5,100 nucleotides of DNA, from NCBI GenBank assembly GCA_000004985.1, contig GG739168.1; one strand, given 5' to 3'. Shown here in pieces: positions 1-5,100 of this stretch. The translations under genes were made by a program, and so were the position numbers. The notes under the pieces were generated by a model. It was not told the origin of the DNA, ran no database searches, and worked only from the letters and a program-made list of their open reading frames with translations. The DNA is from Naegleria gruberi. Taxonomy: Eukaryota. The first letter of the stretch is position 1. Every line of letters starts with the position of its first letter.

Positions 1-1238
1 TATGTTGCAACCTTGCTTTGCTAGCTTCCCCAACTGGATTAGCACAAGGAGTAGATTCCAATTTGATTTATTTTGCTGATTCAAGTAATAATAGAATCAG
101 AGTAGTAACTGGTGCCTCAACTTTGACATCATTAATAATGACAAAAGCTGGAACAGGAGATCAATCAGCTTCTTCAGATGATTTACTGATAGATCCACTG
201 AAGGCCAAGTTCAATACTCCAAGATTAGTGTCTAGGTTAAGCAATGGAAATATTCTGATTGGAGACACTCTCAACTATCGAATTCAGATGATTTCGAATA
301 CTGAAAATGGCGAGAAATTACGAACCATAGTCAATATAGCAGACTCATATGGAAGTTCAGTAATTACAGACATGGTTGTCACCGAGCAAAATACAATTCT
401 CGTCTCCACTATGGATGCAATTTACAACCTGGTGCCCCTTTGTGATATGGGTTATCAACTTGTGAATAACAATACTGAATGCCTTCCTATTTGTTTTGGA
501 TCTCTTGGGCAATTTTCCTGTTCAGGCAGAGGCAAATGTGTAGAGCCAGATAATTGCTCATGCCTTCAGGGACTCTACACAGGAAGTCAATGTGAAATTC
601 CAATATGTTATGGAATTGCTGCAAATGAATCAAGCGTTTGTTCTTATATGAATGGTACTTGTGGAATCAATAATCAGTGTACATGCAAGGATGGATTTTA
701 TGGCAACATGTGTGAGAATCCAATTTGCTTCTCACAAATAGTTGGAGAATCATGCGGAGGTAGTCTCAGAGGAACTTGTATTCATAAGGATAGATGCTCA
801 TGCAATCAACATTTTACTGGAGAGCGTTGTGAATTAAGAATTTGTTCAGGAAAAAGTGAGAATGACACTGAAGTGTGTAATGGACATGGTAAATGTGTGG
901 AAAATGGAAGATGTACCTGTGATGCATTATATTCTGGTTTAGATTGTTCAGATATGAGTCAAATATATGCCTTAGGTATTAGTGCTTCTATTGTTCTATT
1001 GATATTGACTGTATTGGCTGTGGTTTCTATTATATTAGGATTAGTTGTTCATAGAAAGAATAGAAAAGAAAGAAAAATATTGGAAACTGAGCTTTCTCTT
1101 GATGAGAGGTTGCTATCAACTACTGAAGCATATGAATTGTCTATTTCTTCTGCTTCTAGTAATGTTCATTCAACTAATGATGATCCTTCCTCTTTTGTTA
1201 TTCCTCTCCATAAAATTGGAATGGATAAACCAATCAAG
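1..1238 (+). CDS. Exon 1 (5'-partial; reading frame runs open to the window edge, first complete codon at nt 3) of a receptor-like protein kinase gene. It encodes the extracellular NHL repeats, the tenascin-type EGF-like repeats, the TM helix and the juxtamembrane segment. It ends at the splice donor AAG|GTAAGT.
   Basis: About 412 stop-free in-frame codons. The position-18 'M' of the ORF track is really TTG Leu, and the frame stays open upstream to nt 3. Recognisable domain motifs are present (see sub-features). Perfect consensus donor at 1239. Splicing to 1286 continues the frame into the kinase Gly-loop. Confidence 0.85.
3..293 (+). other. NHL-repeat (six-bladed beta-propeller family) segment of the ectodomain. 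At least two repeats are in the window, and more blades probably lie upstream.
   Basis: The protein segments LASPTGLAQGVDSNLIYFADSSNNRIRVV and LIDPLKAKFNTPRLVSRLSNGNILIGDTLNYRIQMI match the NHL consensus (P-x-G-[IV]-A-x-D-x-x-G-x-[IL]-[YF]-[VI]-[AT]-D-x-x-N-[NH]-R-[IV]-[QR]-[VM]-[FIV]). Confidence 0.6.
441..947 (+). other. Cysteine-rich region: an N-terminal Cys cap followed by 4 tandem tenascin-type EGF-like repeats at about 495..608, 609..728, 729..845 and 846..947. The first three are separated by P/R-I-C junctions. Four N-glycosylation sequons (NNT, NES, NGT, NDT) are present.
   Basis: Repeating pattern C-x5-7-C-x5-C-x-C-x2-G-[FY]-x-G-x2-C-E-x-[PR]-I-C with 6 Cys per unit of 34-40 aa. 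Example: CSGRGKCVEPDNCSCLQGLYTGSQCEIPIC. Periodicity is about 114-120 nt. Confidence 0.75.
978..1049 (+). other. Single transmembrane helix (ISASIVLLILTVLAVVSIILGLVV) followed by the basic stop-transfer patch HRKNRKERK (1050..1076). This implies type-I topology with the ectodomain outside and the kinase cytosolic.
   Basis: A 24-residue uninterrupted hydrophobic stretch flanked on the C-terminal side by a Lys/Arg cluster (positive-inside rule). Glycosylation sequons and Cys-rich repeats lie only on the N-terminal side. Confidence 0.8.
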
Positions 1239-1285
1239 GTAAGTTTACTTTCGAATATAACAATGATTTAACAATTTTAATACAG
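1239..1285 (+). other. Spliceosomal intron, 47 nt, phase 0 (GTAAGT...TAATACAG).
   Basis: The donor GTAAGT at 1239..1244 directly follows AAG. The acceptor AG is at 1284..1285, preceded by a T/A-rich tract. The intron is AT-rich and contains the in-frame TAA (1269..1271) that ends the unspliced ORF. Its removal joins ...KPIK to RLGEGGIGSVF (GxGxxGxV) in frame, restoring kinase subdomain I, which neither ORF contains alone. Confidence 0.8.
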
Positions 1286-2191
1286 AGACTGGGAGAAGGT
1301 GGAATAGGAAGCGTATTCATGTCAAAATATAATGGAATGATCGTGGCAGTTAAAGTATTTGATTTAAATAACTTGAACATTTCGGAAGAAGATTTCAAAA
1401 ATGAGGCTATTCTATTAAGCAAACTTCGTCATCCTAATATTATCAATTTTTACGGAGTTTCTACATCACCAACGAAACGTTACATAATTATGGAATGTTT
1501 GGATCAGAGTATGGAGAAGGTGATTGCCAAATTAGAGTTTAAACAATTAACTCTCTCATTGGATCAAAAATTGAAAATGATTCTTAATATTGCTAATGGA
1601 ATTGAATATTTACACAGCTTGAAACCAAGAAAAATCATCCATCGTGATCTAAAACCACAAAATATTCTATTGGATTCGAATGGAAATTGTAAATTGTGTG
1701 ATTTTGGATTGAGCAAATCCATTTCACAAGCAACTGTTTCTGCACTTACTAATCAGTTGGGTACACATTTCTACATGAGTCCAGAAATGTTTGATATTAA
1801 TGCTGTTGATCCTACCTATGCTACTGCAGTTGATATTTACAGTTTCTCAATAATCATGTGGCAATTATTATTCGAAATCAAAGATCCCTACCTCTTTAAA
1901 TCGTCAGAATTATTCCACAAATTGAAAACGAAATCACTTGAACAAGTCTCATCCTATCAGCTTACCAAAATGATTTGTGAAAATAATTATAGACCTTCTA
2001 TTCCATTCCAATCTATCAACGAATGTACAGATTGGTGTACCGAATTTATGAAGTCAGAACTAGGAAATACTTCAACAATTTTCAAATTGGGCCAATTGAT
2101 TAAAGAGTGTTGGCAAGCAGATCCAAAACTCAGACCAAGTATTGAACAAGTTGTAGATCAATTACAATCACTAGAGAATGAGCTTGTATAA
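1286..2191 (+). CDS. Exon 2 (terminal) of the same gene. It encodes the Ser/Thr (TKL-like) protein kinase catalytic domain and a short C-terminal tail. Stop TAA at 2189..2191.
   Basis: In-frame continuation from exon 1 (1286 is 33 nt upstream of the ORF-track ATG at 1319, same frame). Motifs: GEGGIGSV (Gly loop), AVK (subdomain II Lys), E in helix C (FKNEAILL), HRDLKPQN (1640..1648 = HRD), DFG (1700..1708), GTHFYMSPE (activation segment/APE), DIYSFS (subdomain IX), CW..DP..RPS (subdomain XI). Confidence 0.85.
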   Translation, partial: RLGEGGIGSVFMSKYNGMIVAVKVFDLNNLNISEEDFKNEAILLSKLRHPNIINFYGVSTSPTKRYIIMECLDQSMEKVIAKLEFKQLTLSLDQKLKMILNIANGIEYLHSLKPRKIIHRDLKPQNILLDSNGNCKLCDFGLSKSISQATVSALTNQLGTHFYMSPEMFDINAVDPTYATAVDIYSFSIIMWQLLFEIKDPYLFKSSELFHKLKTKSLEQVSSYQLTKMICENNYRPSIPFQSINECTDWCTEFMKSELGNTSTIFKLGQLIKECWQADPKLRPSIEQVVDQLQSLENELV

Positions 2192-2465
2192 TATACTATG
2201 AAACGTGTTGGAAATTGTATCCACCTCTTTGGGTTTGGTTAGGATTCAGAGTTGATTTATTTGGGTTATTTAAGAGATTACTTTGTGAAGATTTATATCA
2301 TTGATTATATTTCTTATCATCTATTAATGATGTAAATTTGATGTTTTCATTTCTTATATTGATAGATATTTAAAGGTCAGGTCAGAACTAACTTTTGAAA
2401 TATGGACTTTGAGAAGTCAAATGTTTGGGACGTGAATCTACTCGTTAGATTGAACAGGTATTGCT

Positions 2466-2471
2466 AATAAA
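2466..2471 (+). promoter_or_regulatory. Candidate polyadenylation signal AATAAA for the kinase gene, 275 nt past the stop.
   Basis: This is the first AATAAA hexamer downstream of TAA 2189..2191. The hexamer is frequent by chance in AT-rich DNA, so the call is weak. Confidence 0.3.
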
Positions 2472-2718
2472 GAAACATTTCATTGATTTATTGATTATAA
2501 CGGTCAAATTGAGTTGAATGGAAGTGAATCTAATGTTGATTGATCGTGGATGGGTAGTTTCGCCACGAAGTGGTGCAACCACCAACCACTACCAACCTTT
2601 GTAGATTGAATCAGGTTGATTTGCATGCAATCTGAAATATGTAGCATGATTCAAGTGATTATTCACCAATTCAATGATCAATATTCAATAATCGGTTTGA
2701 TTTCAATCAATAGCTTAT

Positions 2719-2735
2719 AGCTTGATCATCAAGCT
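2719..2735. repeat. Perfect 8-1-8 inverted repeat AGCTTGAT-c-ATCAAGCT.
   Basis: Direct reading. The arms are exact reverse complements around a single central base. The upstream neighbour TAGCTTATAGCTTGA repeats TAGCTT. Confidence 0.5.
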
Positions 2736-3882
2736 TTGAATTAATATTCCAGTAATTAACGGCAGTCTATTTTTAAATTTAATCAAAGACCATATATAGT
2801 AGCTTGACTTTTATGATATGTACACTATCTAGATGTGTTCTATATTGAATAATCTATTTGAAAATGAGAAGAATTAACTCTTCTATTGAGTTTGGTATTG
2901 CAAGGTATTACGATTATAATAATCTACACAGAAATCACTCTTGAAATATAAACTGTACTACAATGTAAGAGAAACATAATGGTGGTTGAATTAATCAATA
3001 ACTCGTTGAAATGACTGAGATGGAATGTAAACTATGGTCTATTTGTTATGTAATGGTGACTAGACAGTGTCAATTTCATCAAATTATTTCAAACTGATTA
3101 CAATCAATAAAAAAACCACTCTATACACCAAATATACCATACAGAATGAGTTTCAATATTTAATATTGTGAACTGACTCTGTTGGATACCATCTCTATAA
3201 ATATAACAAGATGAAAAGTGTCAACATTCAATTTCACATGCATGTTACTTTGTAGAGTCATCATTATATCATCTAGATAGGTAATATTTCAAGTTTCAGT
3301 GGAATTGACTGTCTAGATATTGAGATATGTTTACTAAGGTTGATGAAGTGTCACCTTCACTGAATCCTGACATGAATATAACAATTGATCATATGATTCT
3401 TGTATAAGTATTTCATTATTCAATAACTGTGATATGATGGTAAAATTTAATTTTGAATTAAGATTCTTCCTAATTGATTTCCTTAGATGTTCCTTAGTTG
3501 ACTTGAAGATACAGAGCCATCAATATGAAACTGTTCCAGATTGTTATCCACATAAAGAGGAGTGTATTCATATTTTACACTAATATGATATTTTGCAAAA
3601 TGAATGGGATGGAGTGTGATCTTTGTGATGAAAGCTGACTTTTTGGAAGAATGATATTATTATCATACTGAATATAATTCTAACAGACTGTAAATGATAC
3701 CATATAATTAATAAAGTGATTTAATATATATGGTAAAGTTATATATTGATTGAACCTACTTTCATTGAGATAGAGAGTTCACTAGGATATAAATACTGTT
3801 GACATTGAACATGAACCGATTGGTTGAATGAAAGTATCATGAATTGTTTCTAAACTTGTTTATATATACTTAAATGATGTCT

Positions 3883-3908
3883 GGGGGTTGGGGTTGGGTT
3901 TGGGTTAG
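3883..3908 (+). repeat. Interstitial telomere-like G-rich tract GGGGGTTGGGGTTGGGTTTGGGTTAG (a mix of TTGGGG, TTTGGG and TTAG units). It has four G-runs and could form a G-quadruplex.
   Basis: Direct reading gives G5-TT-G4-TT-G3-TTT-G3-TTAG. It is the only G-run tract of its kind in the window and sits in otherwise 70%+ AT DNA. Confidence 0.6.
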
Positions 3909-3940
3909 ACGAAAACCCATCGACGACTAACGAACGGCCA
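3900..3940 (+). other. Foldback plus CpG-dense block: TGGGTT-agacgaa-AACCCA (6-bp stem) followed by atcgacgactaacgaacggcc and CCAAT.
   Basis: TGGGTT (3901..3906) and AACCCA (3914..3919) are exact reverse complements. There are 6 CpG in about 30 nt (3909..3937), whereas CpG is otherwise sparse across 2192..5100. Confidence 0.5.
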
Positions 3941-3984
3941 ATATTGAGTATCTGAATTTCATATATGTCATTCAAATATAAATA
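3936..3984 (+). promoter_or_regulatory. Candidate Pol II core-promoter module: CCAAT (3936..3940), then 36 nt of spacer, then TATAAATA (3977..3984). It lies immediately downstream of the GC/CpG-rich block and predicts a rightward TSS near about 4005..4015.
   Basis: Motif order and spacing are classical. No ORF of 60 aa or more follows, so if the module is functional the product would be a non-coding RNA or a gene with tiny exons. TATAAATA also occurs by chance elsewhere (3196, 3788, 4126). Confidence 0.2.
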
Positions 3985-4594
3985 AAAAGCTTATATTGTA
4001 ACGAAGCAGTCATATCTCAAAGTAGTTATAGAGATAATCAACTCTGAAAAAATAAAAGTTAGGTTTTCCCGGTATTACTCTATGAATATGGAGATCGCCG
4101 GTCTGGATTAAATATATGTAGTAGATATAAATATGAGTTGACTATATTCGCAAATAAATTTGAAAAATATCATTGCGTTCAAAAATAATAAGGCACTGCC
4201 TGAAATATTAAGGTTTTTACCCTAGTAGGTCTAAAATTTCAAAGTTGGGTTGAAATGTAAATTTTAATATATTGTAGATATATAGATGAATAGATGATAT
4301 TATGAATTAATCATGTTGAATCGGTGTATTTAATAAGTTACAACATGTTTAAAAATTAACTTTCTAACATTTATTGTACTATTATATGAATGTTATTACA
4401 ATCATCACTAATCTCATATATATGATGTACAATGATGATATTCACATTGTAGAAGTGTTGAAAGTATAATATATAATATCCTTAGTAAACTGTACTCATT
4501 CTACTTTAATTGACCAAGATATTGAGCCATACTATGGAAACACTATACCAATTTATTAAACTTGTTAATATTGTAATAAACATCAAATATAATC

Positions 4595-5068
4595 ATATAT
4601 AATTGAAATAATTATTATTGGATCCATATTCAGACTGTAGGAAGTCAACTTGTGTGAAAATGACAATATCGGTTATTGAAGGATGAATATCTTACATGAC
4701 TTAATTCCACTCATTGATACATGTCTAACTATCATGTTTTATGATATGTAATTGAAATAATTGAAATCTATCATATATATAGGTAGATAACCAATTAGGA
4801 TGAGAGTAGGGGAAGTTACGCTCACTATTTACCAGGTAAACACTTTCAATAGGGACCCATATATTTTATTTGATTATATCGTACATCTATGCATTTTATC
4901 GATAAATAATTGGTTTCATGATTGTATTTTCTATATTTCCAATTTGGGAAGTGTTGCAATGTCAATACTCAATTGAAATATTGCCATAATACCAATTATT
5001 GATTATATTTCATGAAACTGATATTACAGGCTCTAATTGATGTATATATGAATATATAATTGAAATAA
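4595..5068 (+). repeat. Cluster of a recurring AT-rich motif. The exact 17-mer ATATATAATTGAAATAA occurs at 4595..4611 and 5052..5068. TAATTGAAATAATTGAAAT (an internal 9-nt tandem duplication) is at 4749..4767. AATTGAAATA also occurs at 4971..4980.
   Basis: Four copies of AATTGAAATA within about 470 bp and none elsewhere in the window. Two of the copies share an exact 17-mer. Confidence 0.5.
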
Positions 5069-5100
5069 GTGATTTTAGACATTTCTTAATGACATGGATA

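What the first reader, a model, noticed from the sequence alone, without database searches (positions are those of the whole stretch)
1..2191. The two annotated ORFs are one split gene, a receptor-like kinase interrupted by a 47-nt intron
The ORF at 18..1271 ends at a TAA that lies inside a sequence bounded by a perfect AAG|GTAAGT donor (1239) and a TAATACAG| acceptor (1285). The ORF at 1319..2191 begins with MSKYNGMIVAVKVF, a kinase missing its Gly-rich loop. Removing 1239..1285 joins ...DKPIK to RLGEGGIGSVF MSKYNGMIVAVKVF in frame, which recreates GxGxxGxV plus the VAIK lysine. A prokaryote-style ORF caller therefore splits the gene and mis-assigns both termini.
Basis: partly seen in the sequence, partly recalled or inferred. 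Interest (0 to 1): 0.55.

Follow-up and report, generated by a model that had tools for sequence, protein, structure and literature searches.

The report
Split protist kinase gene, 47-nt intron
The two "genes" are one ordinary eukaryotic (amoeba-like protist) membrane receptor kinase gene interrupted by a normal 47-base spliceosomal intron, which a bacterial-style gene caller cannot see and therefore splits in two.

Summary
A GT-AG element at 1239-1285 (AAG|GTAAGT ... TAATACAG|, 47 nt, 21% GC) holds the TAA that ends ORF 18-1271. Removing it joins ...DKPIK to RLGEGGIGSVFMSKYNGMIVAVKVF in frame. The Pkinase match then starts at profile position 4 instead of 21 and runs as one stretch. Of 47 GT..AG pairs in the gap, 15 keep the frame open, and 1239-1285 scores best against two homologue HMMs.

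A close relative in an ENA metagenome contig (L001) has an intron at the same codon boundary. Its length (60 nt) and sequence differ, and it has stops in all three frames. Its flanking exons differ mostly at third codon positions. A more distant relative (L002) and a Naegleria lovaniensis homologue encode the same stretch without interruption.

Two corrections apply. The TTG at 18 is not the start, because the frame is open to the window edge. L001 gives a 1,560-aa protein after four short introns are removed, so the window holds only the 3' part of the gene. No transcript data could be found.

This is a routine eukaryotic gene in a prokaryote-style annotation, and interest is low.

The parts
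3..1238 (+). Exon, cut at its 5' end by the window edge. It encodes the end of the NHL-repeat region, the EGF-like Cys-rich repeats, the TM helix and the juxtamembrane segment ending ...DKPIK.
   Evidence: The frame is open from base 3. Pfam finds NHL, EGF_2, EGF_Teneurin and EGF_TEN. Coding potential is positive in frame 3 only. It is colinear with L001.
21..104 (+). NHL repeat (aa 7-34 of the 713-aa product). It is the last recognisable blade of a larger NHL region that lies upstream of the window.
   Evidence: Pfam PF01436, E 8e-7 on the unspliced ORF. In L001 this region is preceded by about 850 aa containing further NHL-like YxADxxNxRI repeats.
432..950 (+). Array of EGF-like, teneurin-type Cys-rich repeats (aa about 144-316).
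   Evidence: Pfam EGF_2, EGF_Teneurin, EGF_TEN and JAG1-like_EGF2. There are 26 Cys in aa 140-320. The Cys columns are invariant across 5 homologues.
963..1049 (+). Single transmembrane helix IYALGISASIVLLILTVLAVVSIILGLVV, followed by the basic stop-transfer segment HRKNRKERK.
   Evidence: It is the only Kyte-Doolittle 19-residue peak above 1.6 (maximum 3.25) in the product.
1236..1244 (+). 5' splice site AAG|GTAAGT.
   Evidence: Sequence. AGGTAAGT occurs only here in the window, with 0.09 expected.
1239..1285 (+). Phase-0 GT-AG spliceosomal intron, 47 nt, 21% GC. It contains the TAA (1269-1271) that truncates ORF1. YTNAY branch-point-like motifs place the putative branch A 14 and 5 nt upstream of the 3' splice site.
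   Evidence: The intron position is shared with L001:4038-4097.
1278..1285 (+). 3' splice site TAATACAG|.
   Evidence: Sequence. L001 has TTAACACAG| at the same place.
1286..2191 (+). Last exon, which encodes the whole kinase domain bar two residues and includes the TAA stop at 2189-2191.
   Evidence: Pfam Pkinase covers aa 411-703 in a single stretch. The best PDB matches are TKL kinases, and the CTR1 alignment starts at KRLGEGG across the junction.
1292..1315 (+). Gly-rich loop GEGGIGSV (G415-V422). It lies upstream of the ATG that the ORF caller chose.
   Evidence: G417 and V422 are invariant in the 5-sequence alignment.
1352..1354 (+). Catalytic-site lysine of VAVK (K435).
   Evidence: Invariant column K435.
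1640..1663 (+). Catalytic loop HRDLKPQN (H531-N538).
   Evidence: Invariant H531, R532, D533, K535 and N538.
1700..1708 (+). DFG motif (D551-G553).
   Evidence: Invariant columns.
2192..5100 (.). AT-rich (28.5% GC) non-coding DNA downstream of the gene (3' UTR plus intergenic). It is not part of the gene model.
   Evidence: No ORF of 60 aa or more. No coding potential in any of the six frames. No tRNA or Rfam match.

Best explanation
Window bases 3-2191 are the 3' part of one nuclear gene of a microbial eukaryote. The organism is most likely a heterolobosean amoeba related to, but distinct from, Naegleria and Acrasis.

The gene encodes a type I membrane protein. Its extracellular part has NHL repeats and teneurin-type EGF repeats. 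A single TM helix and an approximately 60-aa juxtamembrane segment follow, and then a complete, apparently active TKL-group Ser/Thr protein kinase.

A canonical U2-type GT-AG intron of 47 nt (1239-1285, phase 0) lies two codons before the Gly-rich loop region. The spliceosome removes it and joins AAG(K) to AGA(R).

A prokaryote-style ORF caller reads into the intron and stops at its TAA. It then restarts at the first ATG inside the kinase, losing the Gly loop.

Shown: sequence anatomy, frame restoration, domain continuity, and conservation of the intron position in a relative. Inferred: actual splicing in vivo, the receptor function, and the taxonomic origin.
For: - Sequence and frame.
- Pkinase profile coverage 4-259 in one stretch after splicing, against 21-259 for ORF2 alone.
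- Best score among the 15 open-frame GT..AG alternatives with two independent HMMs.
- L001 has an intron at the identical codon boundary. It is 60 nt, GTTAGT...ACAG, with stops in all frames, and only 38 of 62 aligned columns are identical, with 15 gap columns.
- In L001 the last 54 nt of exon 1 encode 18/18 identical aa, and all 9 nucleotide differences are at codon position 3. In the first 600 nt of exon 2, 77 of 106 differences are at position 3.
- Removing four GT-AG introns of 42-60 nt from L001 fuses four prokaryote-style calls into one 1,560-aa ORF with a hydrophobic, signal-peptide-like N-terminus.
- L002/P0003 and N. lovaniensis P0004 encode K(K/Q)LGxGxxxxV contiguously and align with the spliced product across the junction. 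The N. lovaniensis gene has a 45-nt intron between VVH and RDLK and further breaks in its tblastn exon map.
- Coding potential switches from frame 3 to frame 2 at the element.
- The closest named homologues are Naegleria gruberi (E 2.5e-136) and N. lovaniensis (E 2.8e-106), which share the EGF-TM-kinase core; NHL repeats are recorded only for N. lovaniensis. Acrasis kona proteins match the ectodomain.
- A. kona introns are reported as 9-95 bp (PMC11589745).
- The code is standard: 0 in-frame TAA/TAG, with Gln encoded by CAA/CAG.
Against: - There is no transcript or cDNA evidence. The spliced junction was not found in JGI metagenome contigs, and the window's own proteins are not in the protein collection.
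- The intron position is shared only with one close relative. It is absent from L002 and N. lovaniensis, so it is a lineage-specific intron.
- Taxonomic placement rests on 32-37% identical Naegleria proteins and shared architecture only.
- The branch point could not be identified with confidence.
Confidence: 0.93

Rival explanations
1. Two independent genes, as annotated: a membrane-anchored NHL/EGF protein ending ...KVSLLSNITMI, and a separate soluble kinase starting at M1319 without a Gly-rich loop.
For: This is what a table-11 ORF caller returns. The same split was called on the relative L001.
Against: - The Gly loop is encoded in frame immediately upstream of the ATG, and it is conserved with L001 under purifying selection.
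- The tail read from the intron is not conserved (VSLLSNITMI against VSFKLIILLTIES).
- Homologues carry both halves in one ORF.
- A kinase without subdomain I would lack its ATP-binding loop.
Confidence: 0.01
2. One gene joined by another route: a -1 ribosomal frameshift in 1229-1271 (the ORF2 frame is open from 1229), or a pseudogene or assembly insertion that broke the frame.
For: The ORF2 frame is open through the element, reading KFTFEYNNDLTILIQ.
Against: - There is no slippery heptamer at the site.
- In L001 the element is 60 nt with stops in all three frames, so no frameshift can bridge it.
- The read-through models (1164-1243, 1197-1243) score 6-12 bits lower than the splice model.
- Exact GT/AG ends at the same codon boundary in two diverged sequences are not expected of a random insertion.
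- Both exons are under purifying selection, so this is not a pseudogene.
Confidence: 0.02
3. A real intron with different boundaries, for example 1197-1243, 1243-1295 or 1243-1298.
For: These pairs are also GT..AG and in frame, and they score only 7-10 bits lower against the HMM built from the three heterolobosean homologues (P0002-P0004).
Against: - They delete residues that are 100% conserved with L001 (VIPLHKIGMDKPIK) or delete part of the Gly loop (RLGE).
- Their donors lack the GTAAGT consensus.
- L001 supports exactly the K|R junction.
Confidence: 0.03
4. The sequence is from a giant virus or a ciliate (alternative genetic code) rather than a heterolobosean-like nuclear genome.
For: The window has low GC (31%). 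A GGGGTT-type repeat lies at 3884-3906.
Against: - No relative was found in IMG/VR.
- The 2.9 kb of non-coding DNA and the multiple spliceosomal introns in the relative are unlike giant viruses.
- No in-frame TAA/TAG occurs in 713 codons, which argues against a ciliate code.
- By far the best named hits are Naegleria.
Confidence: 0.04

Closest known systems
Naegleria gruberi 'predicted protein' (P0002, 1064 aa) and Naegleria lovaniensis hypothetical protein C9374_014037 (P0004, 971 aa)
   Same: Both share the EGF repeat array, single TM helix and C-terminal TKL-type kinase; P0004 also has the NHL repeats. E-values are 2.5e-136 and 2.8e-106. The juxtamembrane to Gly-loop region is colinear. The N. 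lovaniensis gene also has short introns, including a 45-nt one between VVH and RDLK.
   Different: Identity is only 32-37%. They have no intron at the Gly-loop position. The numbers of EGF and NHL repeats differ. Both are functionally uncharacterised.
Metagenomic relatives L001 (ENA ERZ929261 k127_175875) and L002 (k127_28152)
   Same: L001 is 68% identical over the aligned protein and 175/200 aa identical at the start of the kinase. Its intron is at the same codon boundary and suffered the same annotation split. L002 is 42% identical and has the same architecture.
   Different: The L001 intron is 60 nt with a GTTAGT donor. L002 has no intron there, but probably has one in subdomain VIII, where the window has none.
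TKL-group kinases with solved structures: Arabidopsis CTR1 (3ppz), human ZAK/MLT, TAK1, plant CERK1
   Same: These are the best sequence matches for the kinase domain (E 1e-31 to 1e-26). The HRDLKxxN, DFG and Gly loop motifs are all present.
   Different: CTR1, ZAK and TAK1 are cytoplasmic MAP3Ks with no ectodomain. CERK1 is a plant LysM RLK. Similarity is at group level only, so no orthology is implied.
Teneurin and NHL-repeat ectodomains of animals (Pfam EGF_TEN, EGF_Teneurin, TEN_NHL)
   Same: The ectodomain matches the teneurin-type EGF profiles and the NHL profile.
   Different: EGF_TEN scores below its curated cut-off (about 43-44 bits against 65). No other teneurin domains are present. 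The cytoplasmic part is a kinase, which teneurins do not have.

Membership tests
U2-type (GT-AG) spliceosomal intron | 5' splice site GT with the extended consensus (A/C)AG|GTRAGT | tested here: met
   AAG|GTAAGT at 1236-1244. It is the only AGGTAAGT in the window, with 0.09 expected.
U2-type (GT-AG) spliceosomal intron | 3' splice site YAG preceded by a T/A-rich tract | tested here: met
   TTTTAATACAG| ends at 1285. Four introns in L001 end in TAG, AAG, TAG and CAG.
U2-type (GT-AG) spliceosomal intron | Branch-point motif upstream of the 3' splice site | tested here: inconclusive
   YTNAY matches place the putative branch A 14 and 5 nt upstream of the 3' splice site. The motif is frequent in AT-rich DNA, and one L001 intron has none.
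U2-type (GT-AG) spliceosomal intron | Removal restores a continuous reading frame and a colinear protein | tested here: met
   It is the best of the 15 open in-frame alternatives.
U2-type (GT-AG) spliceosomal intron | Evolves as non-coding sequence between conserved exons, with its position conserved in relatives | tested here: met
   L001 has the same position with 60 nt against 47 nt. The intron is 61% identical with indels. Exons are 82-85% identical, with differences mostly at third codon positions.
U2-type (GT-AG) spliceosomal intron | Absent from the mature mRNA | not testable with these tools
   No transcriptome of the source is available. The spliced junction is absent from JGI metagenome contigs.
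Eukaryotic protein kinase (Pfam PF00069 Pkinase) | Subdomains I-XI contiguous, scoring above the gathering score | tested here: met
   171 bits against a cut-off of 31.7. One stretch covers profile positions 4-259 of 263.
Eukaryotic protein kinase (Pfam PF00069 Pkinase) | Catalytic residues: GxGxxGxV, VAxK Lys, alphaC Glu, HRDxKxxN, DFG, (A/S)PE | tested here: met
   GEGGIGSV, VAVK, FKNEA, HRDLKPQN, DFG and SPE are all present. K435, E452, H531, R532, D533, K535, N538 and D551-G553 are invariant in the alignment.
Receptor (type I transmembrane) kinase architecture | Ectodomain, single TM helix, cytoplasmic kinase | tested here: met
   NHL and EGF domains, a single hydrophobic helix at aa 321-349 followed by basic residues, and the kinase at aa 411-703.
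Receptor (type I transmembrane) kinase architecture | N-terminal signal peptide | not testable with these tools
   The 5' end of the gene lies outside the window. The L001 relative starts MIRTRTLNFLCIVLPLALLFISSQW..., which looks like a signal peptide.
Plant RLK/Pelle family (the strict sense of 'receptor-like kinase') | Kinase domain groups phylogenetically with RLK/Pelle/IRAK | not tested
   No phylogeny was made. The PDB matches mix Raf-like MAP3Ks (CTR1, ZAK, TAK1) with CERK1, so only TKL-group similarity is shown.

The most novel reading that the evidence does not exclude
The gene belongs to an uncharacterised family of very large (about 1,500 aa) receptor kinases, so far seen only in heterolobosean-like sequences. 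An NHL beta-propeller plus a teneurin-type EGF array is coupled directly to a TKL kinase.

The intron sits exactly between the juxtamembrane segment and the kinase, and it has an early in-frame stop in both the window (after 10 codons) and L001 (after 13 codons). Regulated retention of it could therefore produce a membrane-anchored, kinase-less decoy receptor.
Probability: 0.1. Interest if true: 0.35.

Novelty: new member of a known kind. Interest (0 to 1): 0.1.

Why it matters
The value is mainly practical. Eukaryotic contigs in metagenomes that are annotated with prokaryotic gene callers yield split, mis-terminated ORFs. Here one receptor kinase was called as two genes. In the relative L001, one 1,560-aa protein was called as four genes. 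Such fragments enter protein databases: P0001 is one of them. Biologically, the window adds one more member to a little-studied family of NHL-EGF transmembrane TKL kinases in Naegleria-like amoebae. Nothing about the intron or the kinase is mechanistically unusual.

Tried and rejected
- I searched for the spliced junction (degenerate for the window and L001) in JGI metagenome contigs as a proxy for cDNA. Nothing was found.
- I looked for relatives of the protein in JGI metagenome contigs and IMG/VR. There were none.
- I searched for an exact 36-mer of the window in IMG/VR and in GTDB genomes. It was not found, so the source contig was not identified.
- An exact-protein look-up of ORF2 is not on record. 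The look-up of N. gruberi P0002 is also not on record.
- A literature look-up of the ENA project PRJEB11402 found no paper.
- tRNA, Rfam, repeat and tandem-repeat scans of the window found nothing related to the finding.
- A self-splicing (group I/II) intron is rejected. The element is only 47 nt and has no Rfam hit.
- A ciliate genetic code is rejected. There is no in-frame TAA or TAG in 713 codons, and reading through the TAA would still end at a TGA without giving a kinase.
- A -1 frameshift is rejected, because the L001 element has stops in all frames.
Full report
**Observation**

The window was read in full and ORFs were listed. GT is at 1239-1240 in the context AAG|GTAAGT. AG is at 1284-1285 in the context TAATACAG|. 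The element is 47 nt with 21% GC, against 36% and 33% in the flanking coding DNA. The TAA that ends ORF1 (1269-1271) lies inside it.

Deleting 1239-1285 joins codon AAG (1236-1238) to AGA (1286-1288). The product reads ...IPLHKIGMDKPIK|RLGEGGIGSVFMSKYNGMIVAVKVF... in one frame down to the TAA at 2189-2191.

One detail is wrong. The reading frame is open from window base 3, so the TTG at 18 is an artefact of the ORF caller and the gene continues upstream of the window. The window holds 713 codons of it, or 708 counted from the TTG.

**Is it more than chance?**

An open frame after removing a GT..AG pair is weak evidence on its own. Of 47 GT..AG pairs of at least 20 nt that bridge the two ORFs, 15 give an open in-frame product. 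I scored all 15 with two HMMs. One was built from the three homologues that have no intron here (P0002-P0004). The other was built from the kinase domains of the more distant hits (P0005-P0120). The 1239-1285 model is the top scorer in both: 437.6 and 320.7 bits, with runners-up 6-7 bits lower.

AGGTAAGT occurs once in the window on both strands, exactly at the ORF break. The shuffles predict 0.09 occurrences. A codon-usage log-odds scan trained only on the relative L001 is positive in frame 3 up to about 1200 and in frame 2 from about 1350 to 2100. That is the shift a 47-nt intron requires.

**Domains**

Pfam on the spliced product gives Pkinase at 171 bits as one stretch, covering protein residues 411-703 and profile positions 4-259 of 263. 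ORF2 alone starts at profile position 21 and scores 160 bits. So splicing restores subdomain I, the loop GEGGIGSV. The other catalytic motifs are present and sit in invariant alignment columns: VAVK (K435), E452, HRDLKPQN, DFG and SPE.

Upstream there is an NHL repeat, then an array of teneurin-type EGF repeats with 26 Cys in 180 residues. A single strongly hydrophobic helix follows (aa 321-349), and after it HRKNRKERK.

The kinase is most similar to TKL-group kinases with solved structures: CTR1, ZAK/MLT, TAK1 and CERK1. The CTR1 alignment begins at KRLGEGG, so it runs across the splice junction.

**Comparative evidence**

A protein search found four strong relatives. Two are from an ENA metagenome assembly (P0001 and P0003). 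The other two are Naegleria gruberi (P0002, E 2.5e-136) and Naegleria lovaniensis (P0004, E 2.8e-106), which share the EGF-TM-kinase core; NHL repeats are recorded for P0004 but not for P0002. Acrasis kona proteins match the ectodomain.

P0001 ends ...IPLHKIGMDKPIKVSFKLIILLTIES, so the same annotation split happened there. On its contig (L001) the DNA reads AAG|GTTAGT...TTAACACAG|AGACTTGGAGAAGGTGGAATGGGA. This is an intron at the identical phase-0 position, but it is 60 nt long and has stops in all three frames.

The substitution pattern separates exons from intron:
- In the last 54 nt of exon 1, the two sequences encode 18/18 identical residues, and all 9 nucleotide differences fall on third codon positions.
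- In the first 600 nt of exon 2, 77 of 106 differences are at third positions and 175/200 residues are identical.
- Between the splice sites, only 38 of 62 aligned columns match, with 15 gap columns.

This is the signature of a non-coding spacer between exons under purifying selection. It also rules out a frameshift or read-through mechanism.

In L001, removing four GT-AG introns of 45, 42, 46 and 60 nt fuses four prokaryote-style gene calls into one 1,560-aa ORF. That ORF begins with a hydrophobic, signal-peptide-like N-terminus. The window therefore holds roughly the 3' 46% of such a gene.

The more distant relative L002/P0003 encodes ...KLDLGKMKKLGSGGYGSVYQSQWIGTEVAIKVF... without interruption. 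The N. lovaniensis genomic locus does the same for ...DVKLIAQLGEGSYAKVF.... Both are colinear with the spliced window product across the junction. The N. lovaniensis gene carries a 45-nt intron between VVH and RDLK, and its tblastn exon map shows further breaks. The Acrasis kona genome paper reports introns of 9-95 bp (PMC11589745). A 47-nt intron is therefore typical for this group.

**Origin**

The best named matches and the shared architecture point to a heterolobosean amoeba. At 32-37% identity it is not a sequenced Naegleria species. The code is standard, with no in-frame TAA or TAG in 713 codons. No relatives were found in IMG/VR or in GTDB genomes. This placement is an inference, and I put it at roughly 0.65.

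**Rivals**

- Two separate genes: rejected, because the Gly loop is encoded and conserved just upstream of the chosen ATG, and the intron-derived tail is not conserved.
- A -1 frameshift: the ORF2 frame is open from 1229. It is rejected because the L001 element has stops in every frame and the read-through models score lower.
- Other splice boundaries: these would delete residues fully conserved with L001.
- Giant virus or ciliate origin: this does not fit the multiple spliceosomal introns, the 2.9 kb of non-coding DNA or the codon usage.
- Regulated intron retention giving a kinase-less, membrane-anchored isoform: this cannot be tested here and is kept as the most novel reading.

**Not shown**

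No transcript evidence could be obtained. The spliced junction is absent from JGI metagenome contigs, and the window's proteins are not in the protein collection. Splicing in vivo, ligand binding and receptor function are inferred.

**Verdict**

This is an ordinary eukaryotic gene with an ordinary short spliceosomal intron, seen through a prokaryotic ORF caller. It is a new, uncharacterised member of a known kind. Interest is low (0.1).

Noticed in passing
window 3884-3906: A short telomere-like tract, (GGGGTT) x 3.5 (GGGGTTGGGGTTGGGTTTGGGTT), lies inside non-coding DNA about 1.7 kb downstream of the gene. It could be an interstitial telomeric repeat or chance.
   Followed up: no
window 2192-5100: This 2.9-kb stretch has 28.5% GC, no ORF of 60 aa or more, no coding potential in any of the six frames, and no tRNA or Rfam hit. 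That is a long gene-free stretch if the source genome is as compact as Naegleria.
   Followed up: partly
window 4595-4615, 4744-4764, 5052-5072: An ATATRTAATTGAAATAA motif is repeated three times in the AT-rich downstream region (family D1). Its meaning is unknown.
   Followed up: no
L001 122-4997: Four prokaryote-style gene calls on this ENA contig are exons of one 1,560-aa receptor kinase gene with four GT-AG introns of 45, 42, 46 and 60 nt. The database protein P0001 is therefore a fragment carrying an intron-derived tail.
   Followed up: yes
L002 about 4810-4860: The P0003 ORF stops right after ...FYYM at ATGAG|GTAGAG. This is probably an intron in kinase subdomain VIII, where the window gene has none, and the contig ends soon after.
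   Followed up: partly
L003 (N. lovaniensis PYSW02000007.1), P0004 residues about 875-940: The public gene model diverges from all relatives after ...GTFFYMA (EIIAPKSNAINMKIP...) and lacks the usual PE motif and subdomain IX. This suggests a mis-set splice site in the deposited annotation.
   Followed up: no
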